This document shows, piece after piece, positions 1 through 45,573 of a stretch of 50,828 nucleotides of DNA; within the stretch, counting starts at the first letter, position 1; each line of letters opens with the position of its first letter. Below the pieces are notes generated by a model that saw only the letters and a program-made list of their open reading frames with translations, did not search any database and was not told the origin of the DNA. The stretch lies in the sequence record PZ452605.1, one strand, 5' to 3'. The position numbers and the translations under genes were made by a program. The stretch is from a phage.

Positions 1-1569
1 ATGATCATATGGGAAGATTTGACGGCGGCGCAAAAGCGAGCCATTAAAGAAATCAGTGAGCATTCATTCGAAAAGATGATCAGAATCTGGTTTCAGTTAT
101 TGCAGGGGCAAAAATTCCAGAGCAACTGGCATTTTAGCTTATTGTGCAGTGAGGTAGAGAAGATCATCAATGGAGAGTCGCAGAATGTGATTTTCAACAT
201 TACGCCAGGTAGCGGTAAGACTGAGATTTTCTCGATCCACATGTCACCCTACGCGTCATTGAAAAGTCGTAAGGTGAGAAACCTTAACCTTTCGTTTAGT
301 GATGGACTTGTCCAGCAAAACAGCAACAGGATAAAGGAGATTATCGGTTCTCCTGAGTGGCAAGAGCTATGGCCAGGAAAACTGGCAAAGGCGAGCGCAA
401 AAGATCTCATAGTTACGGATGGCGGCAAGGTTAAATTGCAAGTTAACTCACGTTCTATTGGCGGACAGGTAACAGGTTTGCGTGGCGGCTATATGGATGA
501 TGGTTTTACTGGTATGCTGGTTCTGGACGATCCAGACAAGCCTGATGATATGCTTTCTAAGGTCAAGCGTGAGGCGATCCACATGAGGTTAAAAAACACA
601 GTGCGTTCTCGTCGAATGAAAGACACCACGCCAATTGTTATGGTGCAACAGCGACTACACGTTAATGATTCCACCTGGTTCATGCTTAATGGCGGGATGG
701 GCGGTATTGAGTTTAAAGTTGTGAGCATTCCTGCGCTGGTTACGAAAGAATACCGCGAAACGCTTCCTGATTGGTTGAAGCCTGAATTTGATCGTGATGT
801 GTTGTCAAGTAAGCCAGTGATGATAGATGGAGTTGCTCATTATTCATTTTGGCCTGCAAAGGAAAGCGCGGAGGAATTGCTTGCATTGCGCAATGCAGAT
901 CCTTACACGTTCGCCAGCCAATACCAACAACAACCCATCGCGCTTGGCGGCAACGTGTTTAAAACAGAGTGGTTCCAGTATTACGGCAGCGGCGAAAAAT
1001 GCGCACTTCCTAAACCGGATCGCTTTGAATACACATTTATTACTGGAGATACAGCACAGAAGGCCGGAGAGCTTAACGACTATTCAGTTTTTTGTTATTG
1101 GGGGATGTATAAAAATCGCGTTTACTTCATTGATGGCATTCGCGGCAAGTGGGAAGCGCCAGATCTTGAATTAAATTTTATTGCCTTCGTTAATCAGTGC
1201 TGGAAGCGCAATAAGGAGTGTGGCAGCTTGCGACGTATTCACATTGAGGATAAGGCCAGCGGCACGGGTTTGATTCAGGGGGCCAAAAAGAAGATCCCGA
1301 TTGATATAAATCCCGTTCAGCGAAGCAATGACAAGGTAACGCGAGCAATGGACGCCGCGCCAGTAATGAGGGCAGGACGTGTGGCACTGCCAGAAAGTCA
1401 TCCCATGTTACCTGAGATACTGGCAGAGGTTGCAGCGTTCACTTTTGACGATTCTCATCCCCATGATGATATTGTCGATAATATAGTTGATGCTGTTAAC
1501 GTAGAAATGAACTTGGCAGATGATCCGGTAGCAAGGATGAAAAAGCTGGCTGGTCTACGCAATAAATAG
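1..1569 (+). CDS. terL: terminase large subunit
   Basis: 522-aa ORF, ATG at nt 1; Walker A-like PGSGKT near N-terminus; followed by portal gene. Window end (ta) plus nt 1 (a) would form TAA overlapping this ATG if the sequence is circular. Confidence 0.8.
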   Translation: MIIWEDLTAAQKRAIKEISEHSFEKMIRIWFQLLQGQKFQSNWHFSLLCSEVEKIINGESQNVIFNITPGSGKTEIFSIHMSPYASLKSRKVRNLNLSFSDGLVQQNSNRIKEIIGSPEWQELWPGKLAKASAKDLIVTDGGKVKLQVNSRSIGGQVTGLRGGYMDDGFTGMLVLDDPDKPDDMLSKVKREAIHMRLKNTVRSRRMKDTTPIVMVQQRLHVNDSTWFMLNGGMGGIEFKVVSIPALVTKEYRETLPDWLKPEFDRDVLSSKPVMIDGVAHYSFWPAKESAEELLALRNADPYTFASQYQQQPIALGGNVFKTEWFQYYGSGEKCALPKPDRFEYTFITGDTAQKAGELNDYSVFCYWGMYKNRVYFIDGIRGKWEAPDLELNFIAFVNQCWKRNKECGSLRRIHIEDKASGTGLIQGAKKKIPIDINPVQRSNDKVTRAMDAAPVMRAGRVALPESHPMLPEILAEVAAFTFDDSHPHDDIVDNIVDAVNVEMNLADDPVARMKKLAGLRNK

Positions 1570-1585
1570 CACTAATTGCTAAAAA
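1566..1585 (+). repeat. intergenic motif copy, co-directional (variant ATAGCACTAATTGCTAAAAA)
   Basis: contains terL stop TAG; followed by TATAAT and terminator. Confidence 0.5.
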
Positions 1586-1597
1586 GTTATATAATCA

Positions 1598-1625
1598 AGG
1601 CTGGATTTTTCCAGCCTTTTTTATT
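1598..1625 (+). terminator. rho-independent terminator-like hairpin
   Basis: AGGCTGG-ATTTTT-CCAGCCT followed by T-tract. Confidence 0.5.
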
Positions 1626-1639
1626 ATGGAGATTTGACG

Positions 1640-2932
1640 ATGAGCGAAAAAACAAGGCTAGTTAAGGCCGATGGATACAACGAGATTTTCAAGGGCAGCA
1701 AGGGTAATGGGCGTGTAGAGTTGCCTTTCTTTATGCAAGGTTTCGAATACACCACGCACGCTGATTTTTACATTCGCGATGGACTAGCAAAACGAATTAT
1801 CGACGTTGTTCCAGAAGAAATGGTGACGCCTGGATTTAATATTGATGGCGTGGAAGATGAGGAAGGTTTTAGATCTTTGTGGGATGAGAAGAGACTAAAC
1901 GATAAAATCATTGATGCGCTTTGCTGGTCGCGTCTTTTTGGTGGCGCTGCAATCGTAGCAATCGTTCAGGATGGCAGGGCTTTGAAGTCACCTGTAGCGC
2001 CTGGTGCAATCCTTGAAGATGTTCGCGTTTACGATCGCTTTCAGGTTCGCGTAGAAAAGCGAGAAACTAATCCGCGCAAGGTGCGATATGGTGAGCCACT
2101 AATTTACACCATTGCACCTGGTGCCGACTTGCCAGAATACCAGATTCACTATTCGCGAATCTGTATTATCGACGGTGAGCGGCTACCAAATCAGCGGCGT
2201 CAATCAAATGATGGTTGGGGTGAGTCAATCCTGAATAAGCGATTGGTTGAGGCTATTTGTGATTACAACTACTGCGAAAACTTAGCAACTCAATTGTTGC
2301 GACGTAAGCAACAGGCAGTATGGAAAGCTAAAGGACTTGCCGATCTTTGTGATGATGATGATGGTGTTAACGCCGCGCGTTTGCGCCTTGCTCAAGTTGA
2401 TGATGAGGGTGGCGTAGGCCGTGCGATCGGCATTGATGCGGAAGATGAGGAATATGATGTTTTAAATTCTGATATTTACGGCGTCGATTCATTCCTGGAA
2501 AAGAAGATGGATCGCATTGTATCTCTTTCCGGCATACATGAAATCATCCTCAAAAACAAGAACGTTGGCGGTGTTAGCGCTAGCCAAAACACGGCGCTTG
2601 AAACCTTCTACAAGCTGATCGATCGAAAGAGAAAGGAAGAATACAAACCAATCCTTGAATTTCTGATCCCGTTCCTGATTCAAGAGGAAGAATGGAGCAT
2701 TCAGTTTGCGCCGTTGAGCGTTCCCAGTGAAAAGGACCAGGCCGAGATCTTGAACAAGAATATTGATTCTTTGAGCAAGGCTATTGACGGTCAATTCATG
2801 GATACAGAGGAGGCGCGCGACACATTGCGAGCCATTGCGCCTAACGTTAAACTAAAGGACGGCAATAACATTAAATTACCTGAGCAGGACGTAGAGCCGG
2901 AGCCAGGAACAACCGAGGGTAGCAATCAATGA
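1640..2932 (+). CDS. portal protein
   Basis: about 430 aa, acidic C-terminus, directly after terL; GGAG RBS 8 nt before ATG. Confidence 0.7.
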   Translation: MSEKTRLVKADGYNEIFKGSKGNGRVELPFFMQGFEYTTHADFYIRDGLAKRIIDVVPEEMVTPGFNIDGVEDEEGFRSLWDEKRLNDKIIDALCWSRLFGGAAIVAIVQDGRALKSPVAPGAILEDVRVYDRFQVRVEKRETNPRKVRYGEPLIYTIAPGADLPEYQIHYSRICIIDGERLPNQRRQSNDGWGESILNKRLVEAICDYNYCENLATQLLRRKQQAVWKAKGLADLCDDDDGVNAARLRLAQVDDEGGVGRAIGIDAEDEEYDVLNSDIYGVDSFLEKKMDRIVSLSGIHEIILKNKNVGGVSASQNTALETFYKLIDRKRKEEYKPILEFLIPFLIQEEEWSIQFAPLSVPSEKDQAEILNKNIDSLSKAIDGQFMDTEEARDTLRAIAPNVKLKDGNNIKLPEQDVEPEPGTTEGSNQ

Positions 2933-3684
2933 TAGTGAAAGGCGTCGTTAAACAATGGCGCTTTCCTGAGGCAAGCGAGCGGCAATTGCGCCGCTCAATT
3001 CAGGAGGCGATAAGGGATCTTGTTGTGCTGATGCGCAGCAAAACAAAGGAAATGAAATTTGACGCGGACACCGAAGAAATCAACGCCGCAGAGGATGAGA
3101 TTAGTAGCTTCGCGTTAAAGCTAATAGCTGGCATCGCCGCATCACTTCCGGCTATCGGTCTTGCTGTTTATAAATTCAACGCGAAGCAATTTATTAACGT
3201 AGCCAAATCAACGGGAGGCAAGTCAAATTCAGCCGTTATCATCCTTATGGCTATTGGGGCCAATGCGAATGAGAGTTGGTATAGGACGCTATACGGTCAA
3301 TGGCATGACATGACGATCGCATCTCTTCAAAAGCTATTTGGAAACATCGTGTCTGACTGGTCAACCAATATTAGATTGGCAAACTTTCGCGGAATGAGAG
3401 ATAGCCAGGTTAATGAATTGGCTGGTAAGAGGTTCGCAGTGTATAGCTCTTGGGGTAAGACCAGGGCGGAAAACATCATAGGCGCTTGGAATAGTAGACT
3501 CATGCGCCAGCGTCTTTATGATTCAAAAGTAACTCATTATTTTTGGCATGGTATGCTTGATGACAGAGAGCGATTGCAGCATGTACAATGGGAAGGTAAG
3601 CGCATTGCGCTAGATTCTGAACATGATTTTCCTGGTGAGCCTTTCGGTTGTCGTTGTTGGGCCATACCAGATTGGAACAGTTAA
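2929..3684 (+). CDS. head morphogenesis / minor capsid protein (F-like)
   Basis: 251 aa, start overlaps portal stop; position after portal. Confidence 0.45.
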   Translation: MIVKGVVKQWRFPEASERQLRRSIQEAIRDLVVLMRSKTKEMKFDADTEEINAAEDEISSFALKLIAGIAASLPAIGLAVYKFNAKQFINVAKSTGGKSNSAVIILMAIGANANESWYRTLYGQWHDMTIASLQKLFGNIVSDWSTNIRLANFRGMRDSQVNELAGKRFAVYSSWGKTRAENIIGAWNSRLMRQRLYDSKVTHYFWHGMLDDRERLQHVQWEGKRIALDSEHDFPGEPFGCRCWAIPDWNS

Positions 3685-3694
3685 GAGGTATTAA

Positions 3695-4810
3695 ATGAAG
3701 GCAAAACAAAGATTTGATAGCGCCAAAGTAAAGGCGCACTTTGATGATAACGGGTTTTTAGTTGATCGCCCTATCGTGGCGCGAATTGGTTTACAAGTCT
3801 ATCAGACTCCTTTCGGTGAGCGCAGAGAATTTCGTCCGGCGTCCGAAGTATTCAAGGCCGACTCACTCGCCACCTTCGCAGGGAAGCCAGTCACGGTTGG
3901 TCACGTTACGGTAACTCCAGAAAACGCCGAAAAGGTTGTGGTTGGTTCTTGTGCTGGCGCTGGTGTGCCGAACGGGATCGGCGTAGAGGTTCCGTTAAGC
4001 ATTTACTCAAAACGAGCAATCGAAAGCGCGAAGAAGCGAGACACGGCGGAAATTTCAGTTGGTTATACATCGGTTGATATTGATAAACCTGGCTGGGGCA
4101 ATAATAAAACTGGTGAGTACGTTTTCGATGAGGATGTTAGCGAAGACTGGAAACCGGATTCTCCTGATTGGGTTAAGTTTGATGCAATCCAGACTGAAAT
4201 CAAGGTAAACCACATCGCGTTAGTCTTCCGAGGTCGTGCTGGTATTGCAAAATTAAACCTTGATAGTCAGCAAGATTTTCCGTATAGTGACGAAGTTATT
4301 AACAACAAAGAGGATCAAATCATGACTGTAAAAATTAAACTAGATGGCGCTGTAGAATTTGATGTTCCGAAAGCAGTTGCGGATCACATTGAATCACTGA
4401 AAGCTGATGCCAAAGCACAGAAAGAAAAGGCGGACGGCCTGGAAGCTGAGCGAGATGCACTGCAAACCAAAGTAGATGGCATTCAGGATCAGATTGATGC
4501 CGCAGTCAAGAAAGCCAAAGAAGATGCCGCGCAACATGCTCAATTAGTAGCAGACGCTAAAGAGTTAGGCATCAAGTGCGACGGCCTGGATGCGAAAGCA
4601 ATCAAGGTTGCATACATCAAGGAAGTTATGGGGAATGACGTTTCCGATAAAACTGATGCCTATATCGAAACAGCTTTCGACATTGCCAAAAACTCTGATA
4701 AAATGGCGGCGCAGCGTAAGGGCATTAAAGGCGACTCTTTCGCGAATGAAAAGCAGGATGACGCAGGTTCTAAGCTGAATCCTAACGCTCGTTTTGAGAA
4801 ACTGAAATAA
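3695..4810 (+). CDS. scaffolding-like prohead protein (possible protease-scaffold)
   Basis: 371 aa; C-terminal K/E/A/Q-rich coiled coil; position before capsid genes. Confidence 0.4.
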   Translation: MKAKQRFDSAKVKAHFDDNGFLVDRPIVARIGLQVYQTPFGERREFRPASEVFKADSLATFAGKPVTVGHVTVTPENAEKVVVGSCAGAGVPNGIGVEVPLSIYSKRAIESAKKRDTAEISVGYTSVDIDKPGWGNNKTGEYVFDEDVSEDWKPDSPDWVKFDAIQTEIKVNHIALVFRGRAGIAKLNLDSQQDFPYSDEVINNKEDQIMTVKIKLDGAVEFDVPKAVADHIESLKADAKAQKEKADGLEAERDALQTKVDGIQDQIDAAVKKAKEDAAQHAQLVADAKELGIKCDGLDAKAIKVAYIKEVMGNDVSDKTDAYIETAFDIAKNSDKMAAQRKGIKGDSFANEKQDDAGSKLNPNARFEKLK

Positions 4811-22572: not shown

Positions 22573-23229
<657 letters not shown>

Positions 23230-23233
23230 TAAA

Positions 23234-23255
23234 CGGGGCGCTTGCGCCCCTTTTG
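23234..23255 (+). terminator. terminator-like hairpin
   Basis: GGGGCG-CTTG-CGCCCC then TTTT. Confidence 0.5.
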
Positions 23256-23272
23256 TCATAGGAGAAAACAAA

Positions 23273-23725
23273 ATGCACGTTATTACAGGTGAGATTCGAA
23301 AAGAGCCAAAAGTAAAGCAAATGCCTAACGGCAGCACGCTATATGTTATTGAGCTTTCCGAGCGATACAAAGACCGAGAGGGAAATTGGCAGTATACAAA
23401 CTATGTGTTTTTCTTTAACGCGAAAACAGACGGCCTGAATGGTTGGTATGCCGAGGCGTTCCAGGTAGGCAAGGTTGTTTCTGTTTCCTGCGATACCTTG
23501 CGAGTTGAAACGCGAGAATACAACAGAAAGATTTACAGCACCGTGCAGCCTGGCGGATTTGCAAACTTGCTATTTAGCCAGAGAGGTGAAAGCCAGCAAC
23601 AATATCAGCAGCGAACGCAAGGAGGCTGGGGGCAACCACAACAGCAACAGCAACAAAATACTCAACAGCAGCCGCAGCAAAGCAATCAGCCTCCGATTGA
23701 CTTTGACGACGATATACCATTCTGA
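23273..23725 (+). CDS. ssb: single-stranded DNA-binding protein
   Basis: OB-fold N-terminal region, Q/G-rich linker and acidic tail DFDDDIPF. Confidence 0.85.
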   Translation: MHVITGEIRKEPKVKQMPNGSTLYVIELSERYKDREGNWQYTNYVFFFNAKTDGLNGWYAEAFQVGKVVSVSCDTLRVETREYNRKIYSTVQPGGFANLLFSQRGESQQQYQQRTQGGWGQPQQQQQQNTQQQPQQSNQPPIDFDDDIPF

Positions 23726-23729
23726 TAAC

Positions 23730-23760
23730 AAAAAGCCCCGCATATGCGGGGCTTTTTTTA
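23730..23760. terminator. bidirectional terminator
   Basis: A5-GCCCCGCATATGCGGGGC-T7 between convergent SSB and fibre genes. Confidence 0.7.
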
Positions 23761-24321
23761 GTCTAACGTGGTTGGTTTGTTTACCAGTGCCGCTACAACC
23801 GCTTTTAGCTCGTCAATTTCTTTTCTCATCTCATCGTTTTCCGCTTTCAGTTTCTTAACGTGGTGAATCAGTGGAACAGTGAGGCGGTCATACATAACGC
23901 CTTCCGCCACCATGCCATTACTTGAAGCAATGGCAGGATCTTCTCCTTCTTGCAGCGGTCGCCAGTGAACGTACTCCGGCGCAATTTCTCCAACTTCCTC
24001 TGCAATCAGTCCGTACCATCCCCAATCTTTACGGTCGCTTTCACAGGTTGACCGATACCACACAGGACGCATTTCAAGCATCAGATCCGCATATTCATCA
24101 ATAACCGATTCTACGCTGCGCTTATAACGAGAAGAGGAAGTGGAGCGTAAAACTTGCGACACTCCAGCATTTGGATCAAGCCATAAGTTTGCTGATTGAG
24201 CGGTTGTGTTTAGTCTAAACAAATAAAATGCCTCGTTACCAGTCAGGGGGTAAAAATTGCCACCATACCTTCCGCTATCCAACTCGGACGATAGATCATT
24301 TTGTTTTAGATACAACTTCAA
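23758..24321 (-). CDS. short tail fibre-like protein with C-terminal intramolecular chaperone (peptidase S74-like) domain
   Basis: 187-aa ORF; SDRKDWGWYGLIAEEVGEIAPEYV resembles the autoproteolytic chaperone domain of fibres/tailspikes. Confidence 0.55.
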   Translation of the reverse strand: MKLYLKQNDLSSELDSGRYGGNFYPLTGNEAFYLFRLNTTAQSANLWLDPNAGVSQVLRSTSSSRYKRSVESVIDEYADLMLEMRPVWYRSTCESDRKDWGWYGLIAEEVGEIAPEYVHWRPLQEGEDPAIASSNGMVAEGVMYDRLTVPLIHHVKKLKAENDEMRKEIDELKAVVAALVNKPTTLD

Positions 24322-24496
24322 CTTATTGTCAACATCAGTAGTTGATGCTTTTCCTGCAACATCCTGTTTTAGTGTCGAAACATCACTTTTCAGCTTCGTT
24401 ATATCACCAGGAATAGTAGCAACATCCTGTTTTAGTGTTGAAACATCATTTTTCAGCCTTCGTTATATCACTAGGTATAACAGTTACTGTAGCCAT
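24322..24496 (-). other. out-of-frame N-terminal segment of the fibre gene (ATG 24496 with AAGGAG RBS)
   Basis: ATG at 24496 encodes MATVTVIPSDITK then stops; one extra nucleotide near 24458 in repeat copy B separates it from the downstream frame. Confidence 0.45.
24356..24483. repeat. two tandem copies of a 63-bp coding repeat
   Basis: copy A 24356-24418 and copy B 24419-24483 differ by one C-to-T change and one inserted C (cagcttcg versus cagccttcg). Confidence 0.8.
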
Positions 24497-24508
24497 TTTC
24501 CTAACTCC

Positions 24509-24787
24509 TTAAGCCCATTCTCTAATCGGCTGATCTAACTCAACCACGTAGCCATTAAAAATTACGGCATCAAACTCATCATCAATGATTCGCACATTAA
24601 CGAAATAGCCGTCGTTCTTTCGCGCAATCTCCTCGCCATCGTCAGATCGTGCAATTACTGTATAAGTATTGCCGATTACATCGAGCAGGATTGCATCCTG
24701 AATGGATTCGTTATCATCCCAATTAATTTTTCCTAAAAAGGCCGAAAACTCGGCCTTGTCTGCAAATTTTAATGTTAAATCACGCAT
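24509..24787 (-). CDS. hypothetical protein between the two fibre genes
   Basis: 92 aa from ATG overlapping the upstream stop (TAATG). Confidence 0.4.
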   Translation of the reverse strand: MRDLTLKFADKAEFSAFLGKINWDDNESIQDAILLDVIGNTYTVIARSDDGEEIARKNDGYFVNVRIIDDEFDAVIFNGYVVELDQPIREWA

Positions 24788-26749
24788 TAAACAATTTCCC
24801 CCAATTGATGATCTGTTAGCGCCTTGTGCCATATACGGAAGTTTCTAACGTGCCCGAAAAGATGGCGTTCGCCTGTACTTATTGGTCCGCCAATCCTTAT
24901 AGTAGCCGTCGATCTTATGTATCTCCATTCCGTTTTTGTTTCGCTTGATATTCTGGCATTACTTACACAGCAATTATTGTAATCACTCTTTACTCTCATT
25001 CCCATGATCATCTTTTTTAGTTTCGCATTCTCGTAAACCCTTCGGTTTGAGTTACCTATATCGCAACAAGGGAATCCGTCATTATCTCCCTCAGCAGACC
25101 CAAAAGCAAGAATAATTGCCGCTCCGGTCTGATGGCCTCCTGTATCAAAAACACGCGGTGCTGCGTTTGGCGTTATACTCCAGTTTTTATGAGCTTCCAC
25201 AAGCACTGTAAAAGGCAAATTGTAAAGGTTGTTTTTTATTGGCAATGTAACCATATCGCTTGCTCTTGTTGTTGGCGTACCATTAGAGATAATAAACGAT
25301 GATGCACATGTTCCAAGCTCAATTTGTGGTGTAGCTAGCGTAATCGTTGAATCTTCATAAAATGGCTCTTTGCTAATCTTGTTAGCAAAAAAGAAAGAAC
25401 AGTTTATAGCGTTGCGATCAGCGTCTGCCGTGTATGTCACTTCAAAATAAAGCCATTCTCCGCGCTGTTCAACTTTTGATCTAATGAGATTGGTTTGACC
25501 GCTTACTGAAGCTGTTACTGAATCAAAGTCTAGATATGCGTCTGCCGAAAAAACGTCAGCACCACCATCCCCAGCATAAGCCACTCTCGCACGGAGTCTG
25601 CACTTGCTACCTTTGGCACGACAAGAAAAAGTGAAACTTTCACCGCTAAGTAGATTAAACCTATCTCTGGTGGCAACAGTGATTATAGTGTATCCGCCTG
25701 TTGTCCCTATGATATCATTAGTCGGCGATACTGTTGCGTAGTTGAAGTTAAAGTTGTCGCTACCAAACTCTTTATTTAGTGATGCGTGTATAGACCACGA
25801 CTGCGGATTATTTGAGTTTAACAGATAATTAGTTCTCTGCCCCTCAATCAGCAATCCTTCGCGTTCAAAACGTGGCTCATTAATACCAGCCACAGTTAAA
25901 ACACCTGATTTGTTAATGTAAGTAGCAGTGCTTGCGCGTGAGAAAGAAACGACTTTATCTGATGATATTGTTTTTTCTTCCCCATCAATGGTTACTTTTT
26001 TAGTGCCTTGTCCGTAGCCCGTGATCATATCTAGAGAATCGTTAAACGGGATCCACACGTCAGGCAGAGGCTGCAATAAATCTTTGTAAGGTTCTGCGGC
26101 CTGCTTTGCGTATTCCTCCGCTTGATCTCTAGCACTTTCAGCACCTGTCTTTGCGGCATTCGCAGCATCACGCGCAGTTTCAGCGCCTTTTCTTGCAGTT
26201 CCAGCGCCAGTCTTTGCGGTATTTGCAGCGTCACGCGCGGATTCAGCGGCAGCCTTTGCAGTATCAGCACCTTTCTTGCTATTCTCTGCATTTGTTGCGC
26301 TTGTCTTTGCGTTATTCTCGCTAGTTTTAGCTGCCTTCTGGCTTGCTGCGGCTGCGTCAGCATTTGTCTTTACGTCTTTCTGGATCTTCTGTAGCTTATC
26401 CCAATCAAAATCCTTGATGATCTCAATAAATCCAGCAAACTCCGATTCCTTCCCCTGGTAATAACGCAACGTTTCCGCTACGTCTTGCGCAAGACCGTCA
26501 ACCGTTAACGAGTCATGAAGCAAGATCAGGTAATTTGTCTTCTGGACTACCGCGCCGCCAGTAGTAATTGCGCGAATGCTTGTATCGCTAATCACTTCCG
26601 TAATCACAGCAGCTTGCAAAGGTTGAGCAAGAAAGAAAATAGTTGCACCTGGGCGAATCAAGGTTAATTGCTCACGCCATTTTGTACCGTAACCAGTTAC
26701 ATAACCTTGCGCGTCCATAGACGCTTGGCCTTGTCTGTAAATCGCCATT
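24787..26749 (-). CDS. side tail fibre protein (Stf-like)
   Basis: about 650 aa; Ala/Thr/Lys-rich AKTSENNAKTSATNAENSKK repeats like lambda Stf; beta-rich C-terminal domain; AGGAGG RBS. Confidence 0.7.
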
Positions 26750-26766
26750 TGTAAAATCCTCCTAAA

Positions 26767-26786
26767 TAGCACTTTTTGCTAATGAC
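26767..26786 (+). repeat. intergenic motif copy abutting RBS of minus-strand fibre gene
   Basis: ATAGCACTTTTTGCTAATGA; inverted relative to the fibre gene. Confidence 0.55.
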
Positions 26787-43073: not shown

Positions 43074-43106
43074 TCAAAAGCGATAACCAGGCATAATACA
43101 CACATA

Positions 43107-43262
43107 GACGGGCGGCAAGGATTGCTGCGGGAGAGGAGTAACGCAGGGGCTTGATCGAAGTGTCAGGATTCCCAACCGTGAGGCCAGAACTATCACACTA
43201 GCCACCAGGCAGAACGCTAGATAGGTCACTGAGCTGAGGCTACCGACGAAGTGAAGCCCGTC
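43107..43262 (+). ncRNA. candidate structured RNA / structured 5' leader
   Basis: 155-nt GC-rich ORF-free segment; 7-bp closing helix GACGGGC/GCCCGTC; internal hairpins CTGCG...CGCAG and GCAA-GGA-TTGC. Confidence 0.3.
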
Positions 43263-43299
43263 ACAAAAGATTAAACGATTATTTATGTGAAAGGGGTTA

Positions 43300-43482
43300 A
43301 TGATGGATAAGATCATCAAAATGAGCGAAGTCAAGCCGGGAATGATGGTTAAGTTTGCTGGCAAATATCGCCTAGTGCTGGATAACTGCCGCAAAGAGAA
43401 CATTCTTACCATTCGTGTAAATGGCAAGGCGCAGCTATTCGCCCCTAACGCAGATATTGACGTTGAAGTTAGAATTAAGTAA
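43300..43482 (+). CDS. hypothetical protein
   Basis: 60-aa ORF with GGGG RBS. Confidence 0.35.
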   Translation: MMDKIIKMSEVKPGMMVKFAGKYRLVLDNCRKENILTIRVNGKAQLFAPNADIDVEVRIK

Positions 43483-43497
43483 TTAGGAGGAAACACC

Positions 43498-44391
43498 ATG
43501 TTAAAACTTGCTGACATTAAATTCCCGATCACCTTCGAATCTCGCGGCATTGGTCATTACATTTTTACTGATGAAAAAACATGCCATAAAGTTGATTTGC
43601 ATAGCTACAAGCGTGCTCCATCAGGCATGGAGATTGAACACTTCATTGATGCACATAACAAGCACTACAGCGCACTTAAAGACTATGGCTATGCAATGCC
43701 AGGCTACACATGTTTGCACTACAAGCCATATAAGGGCCAGGTGTTACCAGTGCGCTCACCGGAACGCGCAGAGATTCCGATGGTCAATATGAAAACCTGC
43801 GACTACAAAAAGCTGTGGTGCTTAAGTCTGGACAATATCAAGTATCCGATCACGTTCCACACGACTGGTAAGTCAACGATTCGCTACACATCGCGCGACA
43901 ATGGCGTTTATAGCGATGGCACGAAATCAGAGTTGAAAGTTGATTTCTTTGTTGATGGTCACAATAGATACAATCCACACAACGAAAAAGATAAGGTGTA
44001 CTACGTGGAAGACATTACAAAACACTTATTTGGAGAAACACCATTCGGCGGCGGGAAGACGTCAATTCAGAAAATAATTGGCGAGGAGATCCACAAATCG
44101 GCTAGCGAAATAAAAGCGCCTGGAGGCTGGCGTATTGATAAGAGCGCCTTTGCCAATCAAGAAATCGTAACGCAGGGCGCAATTGAAGACATGCCAGTTG
44201 CAGCCACGCTAAAAGGAGTCCAGCTTGATGATGGTTCATGGTATGAACTAACTGCGAAACCAAAGACGATTGAGATTCATGATGATGCTGTTATCCTTCT
44301 GCTTCACTATGGCAGCGCAAAAAACCGGACTGTTGCGGGTGAGATCAGCATCAAGTGCGGAACGATGGTTAAGTGGAAGGTAAAAGTGTAA
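43498..44391 (+). CDS. hypothetical protein with internal tandem duplication
   Basis: 297 aa; AGGAGG RBS; repeats LADIKFPITFESRG and LDNIKYPITFHTTG. Confidence 0.5.
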   Translation: MLKLADIKFPITFESRGIGHYIFTDEKTCHKVDLHSYKRAPSGMEIEHFIDAHNKHYSALKDYGYAMPGYTCLHYKPYKGQVLPVRSPERAEIPMVNMKTCDYKKLWCLSLDNIKYPITFHTTGKSTIRYTSRDNGVYSDGTKSELKVDFFVDGHNRYNPHNEKDKVYYVEDITKHLFGETPFGGGKTSIQKIIGEEIHKSASEIKAPGGWRIDKSAFANQEIVTQGAIEDMPVAATLKGVQLDDGSWYELTAKPKTIEIHDDAVILLLHYGSAKNRTVAGEISIKCGTMVKWKVKV

Positions 44392-44411
44392 ATAGCACGA
44401 ATTGTTAAAAC
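44392..44411 (+). repeat. intergenic motif copy, co-directional (variant)
   Basis: ATAGCACGAATTGTTAAAAC after stop TAA; TATAAT 18 nt downstream. Confidence 0.6.
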
Positions 44412-44464
44412 TCAAATGTGGGGCCAGGTATAATGGCCTCACTTTCAACGAAGGAGATAAAACG

Positions 44465-44683
44465 ATGTACATTAGCAAGAAGATGAAATGCGTTTCCGTT
44501 GGCTATGGTTGCGCTGGCATGTTTAAGCCTGGCGAAATCTATACGGCGCAAAAAATGAAATCATCAACCGGATCTTTTTACGTGAGCAATAGCAAGGGGC
44601 ATCGCATGTTCCTGAACGGCGGCGAAGGCACTAAGGTTATGGCGCACGCGATGGTAATTGCTGAATTTGAGGAAGTGAAATAA
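44465..44683 (+). CDS. hypothetical protein
   Basis: 72 aa from ATG with GGAG RBS. Confidence 0.4.
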   Translation: MYISKKMKCVSVGYGCAGMFKPGEIYTAQKMKSSTGSFYVSNSKGHRMFLNGGEGTKVMAHAMVIAEFEEVK

Positions 44684-44865
44684 TGGATGATTTTACTCGG
44701 CTTGTTCTAGGCTGGATTGTATTTCTTTTTGCGTGGCTTATCCACTGTGCGAGACATAAATTCAGACTGAGCTATGATAATTCATTCGTTATGACCTGCT
44801 TCAGTTTTCCAGGATGGATCATTTTACTTGGGGCTACTGCTGAATACATCCATAAAACATTTTAA
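44683..44865 (+). CDS. small membrane protein
   Basis: 60 aa, two hydrophobic segments. Confidence 0.4.
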   Translation: MDDFTRLVLGWIVFLFAWLIHCARHKFRLSYDNSFVMTCFSFPGWIILLGATAEYIHKTF

Positions 44866-44875
44866 GGATTAATAT

Positions 44876-45415
44876 ATGAAAAAATACACTTTCGAACTAT
44901 GGGGCAAGAAATACGAATTAATGACCAGCAAGCCGATTGTTATCGTTGATCTGGATGGCACACTATCGGACGGATCGCATCGTTTGCATTTGCTGCCAAC
45001 TGAAAACTTACACCTTACGGAATCGTGGAGCGAATTTAACAGGGCCGCCGCCGGAGATTCACCGATTAAAAGCACGATCGCGGTTATTAACGGTTTATGG
45101 GTGTCGGGATTTGCCATCGTCATCTTGACCGGACGCAGCGACGAGGTGCGCTATGAAACCTGCAAATGGTTGAATGAGAGCGGCGTGAAGTTTGACGAAA
45201 TCATCATGCGCCGCCAGGAGGACAACCGAAAGGATACGGTTATTAAAGAAGAAGCCTTGCGCGCTATTGGCCTGGACAATATTGTTTGCGCCTTTGACGA
45301 TTCGCCGAACGTGGTTAAGCACTTCCGCAGCCTGGGAATCACAACCTATCAGGTCACGGAATACGACAAGCCACACGCTCACCTGCAATCTCACGGCGTG
45401 GAGTGTTTAAAATGA
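44876..45415 (+). CDS. HAD-superfamily phosphatase (nucleotidase / PNK-phosphatase-like)
   Basis: HAD motif I VIVDLDGTLSD; 179 aa. Confidence 0.6.
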   Translation: MKKYTFELWGKKYELMTSKPIVIVDLDGTLSDGSHRLHLLPTENLHLTESWSEFNRAAAGDSPIKSTIAVINGLWVSGFAIVILTGRSDEVRYETCKWLNESGVKFDEIIMRRQEDNRKDTVIKEEALRAIGLDNIVCAFDDSPNVVKHFRSLGITTYQVTEYDKPHAHLQSHGVECLK

Positions 45416-45573
45416 CTTGGTTGCTTTTAATCTTTGTCACAAGTTACAACTCCGCAGCTATTGAGTCGCAGGAGTTCCACGGCGAATCAAGATGCCAGGA
45501 AGCGCGAAAGCAAGTTGTTCTCCACATGTCAGATAGTGGGAAGGATGTAACAGCGTTATGCGTTCGTAAATAG
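45412..45573 (+). CDS. small protein with N-terminal hydrophobic segment
   Basis: 53 aa; ATGA overlap with upstream stop; stop TAG embedded in motif; below ORF-track cutoff. Confidence 0.3.
   Translation: MTWLLLIFVTSYNSAAIESQEFHGESRCQEARKQVVLHMSDSGKDVTALCVRK

What the first reader, a model, noticed from the sequence alone, without database searches (positions are those of the whole stretch)
23758..24496. Short fibre gene with S74-like chaperone domain and a frameshift inside a 63-bp tandem repeat
The minus-strand ORF 23758-24321 ends in a sequence resembling the autoproteolytic intramolecular chaperone domain of tail fibres. An ATG with an AAGGAG RBS at 24496 opens the gene but stops after 16 codons. 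Removing one nucleotide near 24458 (the extra C in repeat copy B) gives one continuous protein of about 245 aa with two 21-aa repeats (IPxDITKLKxDVSTLKQDVA). This may be a sequencing error in a repeat, a programmed frameshift, or slippage-driven on/off switching of a fibre.
Basis: seen in the sequence. Interest (0 to 1): 0.65.

Follow-up and report, generated by a model that had tools for sequence, protein, structure and literature searches.

The report
Knocked-out accessory tail-fibre gene
A one-base insertion has switched off a small, non-essential tail-fibre gene in this T1-like E. coli phage. This is not programmed recoding, and the same gene is broken in about 13 different ways in roughly 40% of related phage genomes.

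Summary
On the minus strand an ATG at 24496, preceded by AAGGAG, opens a reading frame that stops after 16 codons. The rest of the gene continues in the +1 frame to 23758. The break is one extra base (24457-24460) in the first copy of a 63-bp tandem repeat.

The window is a Warwickvirus (Drexlerviridae) genome. Its nearest relative, SLUR29, has an intact 245-aa gene that is 100% identical over residues 13-245. Of the 77 SLUR29 genes found in the window, only this one is disrupted.

The protein has a conserved N-terminal peptide, a heptad coiled coil, a small tip and a C-terminal S74/ICA self-cleaving chaperone domain. It is the third gene of a conserved cassette (Stf, a 92-aa protein, the short fibre) that also occurs in E. 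coli prophages and ~60-kb phages. It evolves under purifying selection (pN/pS 0.23).

No relative shares the window's frameshift. Instead, 14 of 35 GenBank relatives and several metagenome or read-archive contigs carry 12 other single lesions across the gene. The neighbouring genes are never broken.

Best reading: a non-programmed loss-of-function allele of a conditionally dispensable accessory fibre, comparable to the lambda PaPa stf frameshift. A sequencing error cannot be excluded without reads. Programmed frameshifting and repeat-slippage switching are not supported.

The parts
24505..24510 (-). Ribosome-binding site AAGGAG of the short fibre gene. It overlaps the TAA stop (24511-24509) of the upstream 92-aa gene.
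   Evidence: Read directly. The same AAGGAG, spacer and ATGGC start is present in all 23 aligned orthologues.
24446..24496 (-). Truncated 5' reading frame: ATG plus 15 sense codons (MATVTVIPSDITKAEK), then TGA.
   Evidence: the first stop is at codon 17.
24457..24460 (-). Site of the one-base insertion. The window has AAGG where relatives have AAG (consensus) or AGG (SLUR29, L036). It falls in codon 13 of the gene.
   Evidence: MAFFT alignment of 23 orthologues. L036 context. The exact 20- and 26-mers are absent from all fetched loci and from IMG/VR.
24356..24479 (-). 63-bp (21-codon, three-heptad) tandem repeat with 2 copies. It encodes the coiled-coil stalk. Copy number is polymorphic among relatives.
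   Evidence: Tandem Repeats Finder. Gene lengths of 675, 696 and 738 nt correspond to 1, 1.33 and 2 copies. AlphaFold2 predicts a helix over residues 11-47.
23758..24462 (-). Remainder of the gene in the +1 frame, corresponding to residues 13-245 of the intact protein. The first canonical in-frame start is TTG 24321, which has no Shine-Dalgarno sequence.
   Evidence: tblastn of the SLUR29 protein gives 100% identity over residues 13-245 at 24459-23761.
24246..24250 (-). C5 run, intact in the window. It is C6, and therefore frameshifting, in orkinos, JLBYU19, AV105 and L036.
23761..24138 (-). S74/ICA intramolecular chaperone domain (residues 120-245). The predicted self-cleavage point lies before Ser120 (codon 24138-24136), with Lys125 at 24123-24121.
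   Evidence: Pfam PF13884 on residues 120-176. pLDDT is about 90 over residues 130-240. Foldseek hits 7dc3, 3gw6 and 3gud. R117, S118, T119, S120, S121, Y124 and K125 are invariant in 33 homologues. The cleavage position is inferred, not shown.
23731..23757 (.). Palindromic, bidirectional intrinsic terminator between the fibre gene and the convergent ssb gene.
   Evidence: RNA fold gives -21.3 kcal/mol, z -5.3. The consensus scan missed it.
24509..24787 (-). 92-aa gene of unknown function (phrog_1361), the middle gene of the conserved three-gene fibre cassette.
   Evidence: It is annotated intact in all 22 relatives first fetched. Homologues in the same position in L027 and L029 are 30% and 60% identical.
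24787..26772 (-). Lateral (side) tail fibre gene stf, the first gene of the cassette. The probable start is ATG 26748.
   Evidence: phrog_1419 and other tail-fibre families. It is annotated as one intact CDS of about 1.96-2.0 kb in all 22 relatives.

Best explanation
The locus encodes an accessory short tail-fibre protein, 245 aa when intact. It is the third gene of a mobile three-gene lateral-fibre cassette: Stf, a 92-aa protein, then the short fibre.

Inferred architecture of the intact protein:
- a conserved N-terminal docking peptide (MATxTxIPxDITxLK);
- a trimeric heptad coiled coil whose length is set by 21-aa repeats;
- a small distal tip of about 70 aa;
- a C-terminal S74/ICA intramolecular chaperone that folds the trimer and then cuts itself off before Ser120.

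In this window a single extra base in codon 13 shifts the frame. Translation ends after 16 codons. The +1 frame has no usable start before TTG 24321, so the phage makes essentially no short fibre. This is an ordinary loss-of-function allele, not recoding.

The allele is tolerated because the fibre is dispensable for growth on the hosts used. It belongs to a wider pattern in which the gene is knocked out repeatedly and independently in this phage group, while being kept by purifying selection over longer times. That pattern fits a conditionally useful fibre whose loss is neutral or advantageous in some settings, as for the lambda PaPa stf frameshift.

Shown: the lesion, its uniqueness, the domain fold, the cassette, the recurrent lesions and the purifying selection.
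Inferred: virion location, the cleavage site, and the selective advantage of loss.
For: 1. The lesion is real in the sequence and unique.
-.
- SLUR29 has an intact 738-nt ORF.
- The exact allele is absent from 39 loci and from IMG/VR.

2. Assembly quality.
- 76 of 77 SLUR29 proteins are full-length and collinear in the window. This gene is the only exception.

3. Recurrent inactivation: 13 distinct lesions.
- window: +1 nt at codon 13
- L034: +TA at codon 22
- KMB46: 13-nt deletion at the repeat junction
- brachmannus: -A in an A4 run
- orkinos, JLBYU19, AV105, L036: C5 to C6
- JLBYU10: +CC
- L037-39 (metagenome): W158*
- ityhuna: -G
- Phunderstruck: G159*
- tuinn: E167*
- EC195, EC125, JLBYU07: Y175*
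- JLBYU01: E219*
- SECphi27: -A
- Sources. EC125 was not fetched; it is counted from its tblastn row, which matches EC195's.
- 14 of 35 GenBank phages are broken.
- Every allele examined base by base carries exactly one lesion.
- Shared lesions sit on different haplotype backgrounds.

4. Specificity.
- The neighbouring stf (about 2 kb), 92-aa gene and ssb are intact in all 22 annotated relatives.
- Genome-wide, orkinos has no other broken gene. EC195 has one other, a 61-aa ORF.

5. The gene is functional over evolutionary time.
- pN/pS is 0.23 overall and 0.115 in the chaperone part.
- The same three-gene cassette is kept at 30-60% identity in an E. coli prophage and a 60-kb phage.
- Short homologue clusters have 2928 and 650 member sequences.

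6. Fold.

7. Precedent.
- Lambda Stf+ phages quickly give stf mutants: 19 of 21 isolates, 15 of them frameshifts (PMC2762979).
- Laboratory lambda lacks side fibres because of a frameshift, and T5 fibres are non-essential on rough strains (PMC12617516).
- Drexlerviridae lateral fibres are thought to bind O-antigen without being required for host recognition (10.1101/2021.03.08.434280, section 8).
Against: - No reads are available, so a consensus error at this one base cannot be excluded.
- No experiment shows that the protein is in the virion, that it self-cleaves, or that its loss improves growth.
- Plaque-size selection cannot be the whole story. The Danish phages were obtained by two liquid enrichments without plaque purification (PMC7552041, Methods), and three of seven are broken.
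- Broken alleles also occur in phages isolated on non-K-12 hosts (AV105, EC195, KMB46) and in metagenome contigs (L034, L037-39). The loss is therefore not purely a K-12 laboratory artefact.
- It is unexplained why this small gene is hit rather than the larger stf gene.
- The brachmannus record is flagged UNVERIFIED.
Confidence: 0.65

Rival explanations
1. Sequencing or assembly artefact. The phage really has an intact gene, and the extra base was introduced during consensus calling in a 91%-identical tandem repeat.
For: - The lesion lies inside a 63-bp tandem repeat where short reads can be misplaced.
- The two copies differ at exactly this spot in the nearest haplotypes: AGG in copy 1 of SLUR29 and L036, AAG in copy 2.
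- No other record carries the same allele.
- No gene with the window's truncated product is on record in the assembly collection.
Against: - It is the only frameshift among the 77 genes shared with SLUR29, so the assembly is not error-prone.
- The site is a dinucleotide, not a long homopolymer.
- Mixing the two copies would give a mismatch, not an insertion.
- The prior for a genuine knock-out is high, because about 40% of relatives carry one, including six nonsense-substitution sites that are not typical errors.
Confidence: 0.2
2. Contingency (phase-variable) gene. The fibre is switched off and on by reversible slippage, and the window shows the OFF state of a bet-hedging switch.
For: - A C5 run in the gene is C6 on four different haplotype backgrounds.
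- SECphi27 and brachmannus lost one A from A4 runs.
- Phage contingency loci have been described, and Warwickvirus has the highest homopolymer density of 32 genera surveyed (10.1101/2025.10.21.683753).
- Every broken allele examined base by base has only one lesion, and the gene stays under purifying selection. This fits short-lived OFF states.
Against: - The window's own lesion is at an AA/GG dinucleotide, not a repeat tract.
- Six of the 13 lesions are nonsense substitutions, and three more (a 13-nt deletion, +TA and a single-G loss) lie outside mononucleotide runs. The spectrum therefore reflects selection for any knock-out, not a dedicated switch.
- No within-population switching has been measured.
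- Several alleles interrupt the C run (CCCAC) without consequence.
Confidence: 0.08
3. Decaying relic. The gene is the left-over 3' end of an ancestral long fibre gene displaced by the Stf cassette, is functionless, and is drifting to a pseudogene.
For: - In other Drexlerviridae (L024, L025) the homologous tip and S74 module is the C-terminus of a fibre of at least 684 aa that abuts ssb.
- PHROG profiles align the 245 aa to the extreme C-termini of long fibres, for example phrog_3299 positions 1147-1384 of 1385.
- There is a high frequency of broken copies.
Against: - pN/pS is 0.23, and 0.115 in the chaperone part.
- The gene has its own conserved RBS and start in all orthologues.
- A conserved N-terminal peptide is shared with other short fibre families (phrog_4563 and phrog_19752).
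- The same short gene sits in the same three-gene order in an E. coli prophage and a 60-kb phage at 57-59% identity.
- Each broken copy examined base by base has a single lesion rather than accumulated decay.
Confidence: 0.05
4. Programmed +1 ribosomal frameshift at GAA AAA UGA, of the prfB type, producing the full-length fibre at a regulated level.
For: - The required shift is +1 and must occur between ACG and the UGA stop.
- A stop codon in the A site after a Lys AAA codon, with a weak AAGG Shine-Dalgarno-like element upstream, gives a superficial resemblance to prfB (read; the prfB features are from general knowledge).
Against: - None of about 40 orthologues has the shift. All intact ones read straight through.
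- The insertion itself created the AAGG.
- The spacing to the P-site codon is 5 nt, against 3 nt in prfB.
- After a +1 slip, the Lys tRNA on AAA would re-pair with AAU, with a wobble-position mismatch.
- Relatives are broken at 12 other places, which cannot all be recoding sites.
Confidence: 0.02

Closest known systems
Lambda PaPa stf frameshift (laboratory lambda lacks side tail fibres; Hendrix and Duda 1992, as cited in PMC2762979 and PMC12617516)
   Same: - A single-base frameshift abolishes a non-essential accessory tail fibre of an E. coli siphophage.
- The phage still plates normally.
- Independent knock-outs arise readily: 19 of 21 lambda isolates, 15 of them frameshifts (PMC2762979).
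   Different: - Here the target is not the Stf fibre itself but a small downstream S74-domain gene. Stf stays intact in every genome examined.
- Lesions are seen across dozens of independent wild isolates, enrichment lysates and metagenome contigs, not in one laboratory lineage.
- No fitness advantage has been demonstrated.
Peptidase_S74 / ICA intramolecular chaperone domains of phage fibres and tailspikes (endosialidase K1F 3gw6, GA-1 3gud, T5 pb1) and of MyRF (7dc3)
   Same: - A C-terminal domain with the same fold.
- A Pfam hit.
- An invariant Ser and a Lys five residues downstream.
- It sits after a trimeric fibre segment.
   Different: - The mature part would be only about 119 aa (coiled coil plus a small tip), far shorter than characterised fibres.
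- Self-cleavage has not been demonstrated.
- No sequence-level match to any solved chain: a profile search at E<=0.1 found nothing, and the single-sequence search found only weak coiled-coil matches and one weak antibody match.
Phage contingency loci (homopolymer slippage in T2/T4; 10.1101/2025.10.21.683753)
   Same: - Frameshifts inactivate non-essential phage genes.
- A C5/C6 run in this gene varies on several backgrounds.
- Warwickvirus is rich in homopolymers.
   Different: - The window's lesion and most of the others are not in simple-sequence repeats.
- Reversibility has not been tested.
T5-like fibre tips with a C-terminal chaperone domain on coiled-coil shafts in Drexlerviridae and Dhillonvirus (JakobBernoulli Gp36, RuthEpting Gp29; PMC11990801)
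   Same: - An N-terminal coiled coil followed by a tip and a chaperone domain.
- The same phage family.
- A homologous module is fused to a long fibre in L024 and L025.
   Different: - Here the module is a separate 245-aa polypeptide that has none of Stf's N-terminal region and is encoded downstream of a different fibre (Stf) and a 92-aa protein.

Membership tests
Peptidase_S74 / ICA intramolecular chaperone domain | A match to the family profile at or above the curated threshold | tested here: met
   PF13884 scores 22.5 bits against a cut-off of 22.0 on residues 120-176 of the repaired protein, which is marginal. PF13884 is precomputed for most homologues.
Peptidase_S74 / ICA intramolecular chaperone domain | The fold of solved ICA/IMC domains | tested here: met
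   The AlphaFold2 model has pLDDT of about 90 over residues 130-240. Foldseek hits 7dc3 (E 3e-5, probability 1.0, TM 0.66 on the target), then 3gw6 and 3gud.
Peptidase_S74 / ICA intramolecular chaperone domain | A conserved nucleophilic Ser and general-base Lys at the start of the domain | tested here: met
   S120, S121 and K125 are invariant in 33 homologues. The match to endosialidase Ser911/Lys916 spacing rests on recalled knowledge, not on an alignment made here.
Peptidase_S74 / ICA intramolecular chaperone domain | Autoproteolytic release of the domain after trimer folding | not testable with these tools
   Needs expression and SDS-PAGE or mass spectrometry, with an S120A control.
Programmed ribosomal frameshift | The shift site and two-frame arrangement are conserved among orthologues | tested here: not met
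   No orthologue shares the shift. 21 of 35 GenBank relatives are intact single ORFs, and the rest break elsewhere.
Programmed ribosomal frameshift | A slippery sequence with a stimulator in the correct register | tested here: not met
   A +1 shift is required. There is no X XXY YYZ heptamer. The AAGG element is 5 nt from the P-site codon and was created by the insertion itself.
Contingency locus (phase-variable simple-sequence repeat) | The inactivating indel lies in a homopolymer or short-unit repeat tract | tested here: not met
   The window's lesion is at AAGG, runs of only 2 bases. The criterion is met only for other alleles of the gene: C5 to C6 and A4 to A3.
Contingency locus (phase-variable simple-sequence repeat) | Reversible ON/OFF heterogeneity within clonal populations | not testable with these tools
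   Needs deep sequencing of stocks.
Loss-of-function alleles of non-essential side fibres (lambda PaPa type) | The phage stays viable with the gene broken | tested here: met
   14 cultured GenBank phages with broken copies were isolated and propagated.
Loss-of-function alleles of non-essential side fibres (lambda PaPa type) | Multiple independent inactivating mutations specific to the gene | tested here: met
   13 distinct lesions. The flanking stf, 92-aa gene and ssb are never broken.
Loss-of-function alleles of non-essential side fibres (lambda PaPa type) | Loss confers a growth or plaque advantage | not testable with these tools
   Needs competition assays. Indirect evidence only.

The most novel reading that the evidence does not exclude
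The short S74 fibre gene is a natural trade-off or bet-hedging gene of Warwickvirus-type fibre cassettes. Knock-outs are positively selected again and again, in enrichments and in the wild, for example by faster spread, by avoiding non-productive binding, or by escape from a host sensor of fibre tips. Intact alleles are restored or retained by recombination and purifying selection. The window would then capture one OFF state of a population-level fibre polymorphism that has not been described for T1-like phages.
Probability: 0.3. Interest if true: 0.65.

Novelty: new member of a known kind. Interest (0 to 1): 0.42.

Why it matters
For this window the practical message is about annotation. The 16-codon ORF and the 187-aa ORF are two halves of one inactivated gene, not a recoding signal or two genes.

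The wider pattern has three consequences:
- It is a ready-made natural experiment on the costs and benefits of accessory receptor-binding fibres. One small fibre gene is knocked out by 13 different lesions in about 40% of sequenced relatives, while the adjacent 2-kb fibre gene is never hit.
- It warns that deposited therapeutic or reference phages of this genus often lack a fibre that their wild relatives carry. That could change host range on O-antigen-bearing strains.
- It also explains inconsistent annotations of this gene, such as 'chaperone of endosialidase', 'tail fiber domain-containing protein (x2)' and 'hypothetical protein (x2)'.

Tried and rejected
- **Programmed frameshift.** Rejected for lack of conservation and lack of a motif.
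- **Re-initiation.** The only ATGs near the stop (in AATGATG) are in the third frame and open a 5-codon ORF. The fibre frame has no ATG, GTG or TTG before 24321.
- **Search for the identical allele elsewhere.** The aim was to show that it exists in independent data. Nothing was found in the fetched loci or IMG/VR. No gene with the 187-aa or 174-aa product is on record. This is uninformative about error versus mutation.
- **Sequence search of solved structures.** The single protein gave only weak coiled-coil matches and one weak antibody match, and the profile gave nothing. The fold search was needed instead.
- **Consensus terminator scan.** It found nothing because the hairpin is a perfect palindrome. 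Folding confirmed it.
- **Uncultured controls.** IMG/VR and JGI metagenomes gave only two near-full-length close orthologues, both intact (L023, L031). That is too few to compare with cultured phages. Logan and ENA contigs then showed that broken alleles also occur outside isolate records.
- **K-12-only adaptation.** Not supported as the sole cause. Broken alleles occur in phages isolated on ESBL, ECOR and clinical strains and in metagenome contigs.
- **Plaque-size selection.** Not supported as the sole cause. The Danish phages were never plaque-purified.
- **Enrichment of lesions in the repeat.** Not supported. 3 of 13 lesions fall in 17% of the gene.
- **Literature.** No paper in the searchable library mentions this recurrent disruption.
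Full report
**1. What is in the sequence**

Read on the minus strand, the 92-aa gene ends with TAA at 24511-24509. That stop overlaps an AAGGAG at 24510-24505, and eight bases further on an ATG opens at 24496. This frame reads MATVTVIPSDITKAEK and meets TGA at 24448-24446.

The +1 frame is open from 24462 to TAA 23760-23758. Its first ATG, GTG or TTG is TTG 24321, which gives the 187-aa ORF (in-frame starts are listed).

Tandem Repeats Finder reports a 63-bp unit with 2.0 copies at 24356-24479, with 91% matches and one indel. The indel is the lesion. Copy 1 reads ACGAAGGCTG and copy 2 reads ACGAAGCTG. Removing one base gives a 245-aa protein with two 21-aa repeats.

**2. What the window is, and whether the assembly is sound**

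The 1.2 kb around the gene matches 55 phage records. Every record fetched that carries a taxonomy line is Warwickvirus (Drexlerviridae, Tempevirinae). The best match is vB_Eco_SLUR29 at 99.6%.

Over the whole genome the window is about 97% identical to SLUR29. Of 78 SLUR29 proteins, 77 have a tblastn match in the window. Of those, 76 are full-length, collinear and free of stops. The single exception is this gene, which matches with 100% identity from residue 13 to 245. The assembly is therefore not generally prone to frameshifts.

**3. The frameshift is not conserved**

In SLUR29 the orthologue is one intact 738-nt CDS. I aligned the window with 22 relatives.

- None shares the insertion. The consensus is AAGCTG. 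SLUR29 and the read-archive contig L036 have AGGCTG (K13R). The window has AAGGCTG.
- Intact genes come in three lengths:
  - 738 nt (two repeat copies): SLUR29, XY3, two tunus isolates.
  - 675 nt (one copy): tinuso, JK16, swan01, G3B1, tonn, tunzivis.
  - 696 nt (one copy plus a 21-nt partial): JLBYU16, BEBK14, PeterMerian.
- The 63-bp repeat is therefore a natural, in-frame length polymorphism of the coiled coil. It is not a frameshifting switch.

A programmed shift would need +1 slippage between ACG and UGA. There is no slippery heptamer. The AAGG element was created by the insertion itself and lies 5 nt from the P-site codon. Programmed recoding is rejected.

**4. What the protein is**

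- Pfam gives a marginal Peptidase_S74 hit on residues 120-176, plus coiled-coil families at both ends.
- PHROG profiles align the protein to the extreme C-termini of long tail-fibre families (phrog_3299 positions 1147-1384 of 1385; phrog_454, 1699 and others). The first 26 residues match the N-termini of two short fibre families.
- A database search found 93 relatives. Among them are many short (220-270 aa) proteins with the same layout. These include E. coli clusters with 2928 and 650 member sequences, named 'tail fiber domain-containing protein'.
- An AlphaFold2 model built on 33 homologues is confident (pLDDT about 90) for residues 130-240. It predicts a long helix for residues 11-47 and is poor in between, as expected for a monomer model of a trimer.
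- Foldseek against solved structures returns the MyRF ICA domain (7dc3; E 3e-5, probability 1.0), then the endosialidase chaperone 3gw6 and GA-1 3gud.
- R117, S118, T119, S120, S121, Y124 and K125 are invariant. This fits a Ser/Lys self-cleavage site before Ser120. The cleavage itself is an inference.

**5. Genomic setting**

In the window the gene order is primase, stf (24787-26772), a 92-aa gene (24509-24787), the short fibre gene, a palindromic terminator (23731-23757), and the convergent ssb gene.

The same trio (long fibre, 89-92-aa protein, short S74 protein) is found next to the integrase of an E. coli prophage (L027) and in a 60.8-kb phage contig (L029). Identities to the window are 42-46% for Stf, 30-60% for the small protein and 57% for the short fibre.

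In other Drexlerviridae (L024, L025) the homologous tip and S74 module is instead the C-terminus of a fibre of at least 684 aa that abuts ssb. So the short gene probably arose by module shuffling. It is now a conserved, separately translated member of a mobile fibre cassette.

Across the Warwickvirus alleles pN/pS is 0.23, and 0.115 in the chaperone domain. This is purifying selection, so the gene is not a functionless relic.

**6. The unexpected part: recurrent knock-outs**

Distinct lesions in the orthologues (codon numbers follow the 245-aa form):

| Lesion | Where found |
|---|---|
| +1 nt, codon 13 | window |
| +TA, codon 22 | L034, a 51-kb read-archive contig |
| 13-nt deletion at the junction of the two repeat copies | KMB46 |
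| -A in an A4 run | brachmannus (UNVERIFIED record) |
| C5 to C6 | orkinos, JLBYU19, AV105, L036 |
| +CC | JLBYU10 |
| W158* (TGG to TAG) | L037-39, a 66%-identical orthologue on a 52-kb metagenome contig |
| -G at nt 437 | ityhuna |
| G159* (GGA to TGA) | Phunderstruck |
| E167* | tuinn |
| Y175* (TAC to TAA) | EC195, EC125, JLBYU07 |
| E219* | JLBYU01 |
| -A at nt 690 | SECphi27 |

Sources. EC125 was not fetched. It is counted because its tblastn row matches EC195's.

- That makes 13 different lesions. Fourteen of 35 distinct GenBank phages with this orthologue are broken, plus the window.
- Eight of the 21 phages counted as intact were not fetched. They are judged intact from a single annotated CDS under the full tblastn match.
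- Every broken allele examined base by base carries exactly one lesion.
- The C6 and Y175* alleles sit on different flanking haplotypes. This indicates recurrence or recombination.
- In contrast, stf (about 2 kb), the 92-aa gene and ssb are annotated intact in all 22 relatives first fetched.
- In a genome-wide check, orkinos has no other broken gene. EC195 has one other, a 61-aa ORF.
- If eight independent lesions fell at random over the 3.4 kb of these four genes, the chance that all hit the 738-nt gene is about (0.21)^8, roughly 5e-6. This is my arithmetic and ignores the essentiality of the neighbours.

**7. Interpretation**

The window carries a loss-of-function allele of a conditionally dispensable accessory fibre. 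The pattern has three features:
- many different single knock-outs;
- no secondary decay;
- long-term purifying selection.

This is what is expected when loss is tolerated or favoured in some settings and penalised in others.

The closest precedent is lambda. Laboratory lambda lacks side fibres because of a frameshift in stf (PMC12617516). Stf+ lambda rapidly yields stf mutants in lawns: 19 of 21 isolates, 15 of them frameshifts (PMC2762979). Drexlerviridae lateral fibres are thought to bind O-antigen without being required for host recognition (10.1101/2021.03.08.434280, section 8).

Two findings caution against a simple laboratory-artefact story.
- The Danish isolates came from two liquid enrichments without plaque purification (PMC7552041), yet three of seven are broken.
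- Broken alleles also occur in phages isolated on non-K-12 hosts and in metagenome contigs.

Why the small gene is hit rather than stf remains unexplained. Escape from a host sensor of fibre tips is conceivable, since Septu escapers map to fibre tips (10.1101/2022.08.27.505566). That is pure speculation here.

**8. Rivals**

- **Consensus error.** This remains possible (about 0.2) because no reads are available and no independent record carries the allele.
- **Dedicated contingency switch.** Partly suggested by the C5/C6 run and by the high homopolymer density of Warwickvirus (10.1101/2025.10.21.683753). However, the window's lesion and most of the others are not in repeat tracts.
- **Neutral relic and programmed frameshift.** Both are contradicted by the data above.

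**9. Novelty and verdict**

The object itself is ordinary: a frameshifted allele of a known kind of gene, with a well-known analogue in lambda PaPa. What appears unreported in the searchable literature is that this particular gene is a hot spot for knock-outs across a whole phage genus and beyond.

I rate the finding as a new member of a known kind, with moderate interest (0.42). The more interesting trade-off or bet-hedging reading has about a 0.3 chance.

Noticed in passing
window 23639-23655 (within ssb, 23222-23725 +): A CAACAG hexanucleotide array encodes the Q-rich tail of SSB. Its length differs in frame among relatives: XY3 and G3B1 have 6 nt more, and L023 has four more Gln.
   Followed up: partly
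window 23731-23757: A perfectly palindromic hairpin (GCCCCGCATATGCGGGGC flanked by A and T runs) serves as a bidirectional terminator for the convergent fibre and ssb genes. RNA folding gives -21.3 kcal/mol, z -5.3. The consensus scan misses it because the loop is too short.
   Followed up: yes
window about 45.9-46.1 kb (orthologue of SLUR29_00017, 61 aa): This small hypothetical gene has an internal stop in EC195 and a different N-terminus in orkinos. It is intact in the window. It is the only other lesion seen in the two genome-wide controls.
   Followed up: partly
window 43074-45567: A 2.5-kb stretch is absent from SLUR29. It carries ORFs of 297, 93 and 179 aa. The 179-aa ORF may be a polynucleotide kinase/phosphatase-like protein (HAD type), judged by eye only. 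EC195 annotates an ORF of the same length (894 nt) as the 297-aa one.
   Followed up: no
window 25293-26020 (middle of stf): The central part of the Stf fibre gene has no megablast match to SLUR29, although the flanks are 97% identical. This indicates a mosaic exchange inside the fibre. The Stf C-terminus ends with a motif (RIWHKALTDHQL) reminiscent of LamG/ConA-like lectin domains. This is recalled knowledge and was not tested.
   Followed up: no
L043 (KMB46) 244-970: The two 63-bp repeat copies are identical to each other, which looks like gene conversion. A 13-nt deletion sits exactly at their junction. This is the one relative whose lesion is truly repeat-associated.
   Followed up: yes
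L024 / L025 (IMG/VR) 124-2178: In other Drexlerviridae the homologous tip and S74 module is fused to the end of a fibre of at least 684 aa directly upstream of ssb. This shows that the short gene and the long fibres exchange this module.
   Followed up: partly
L027 (E. coli GCA_001647315.1 contig) 1-4769: The same Stf / 89-aa / 227-aa S74 cassette lies at the end of a prophage, next to DinI and an integrase, and adjacent to dus and pspG. A 95-aa hydrophobic ORF follows the short fibre gene.
   Followed up: no
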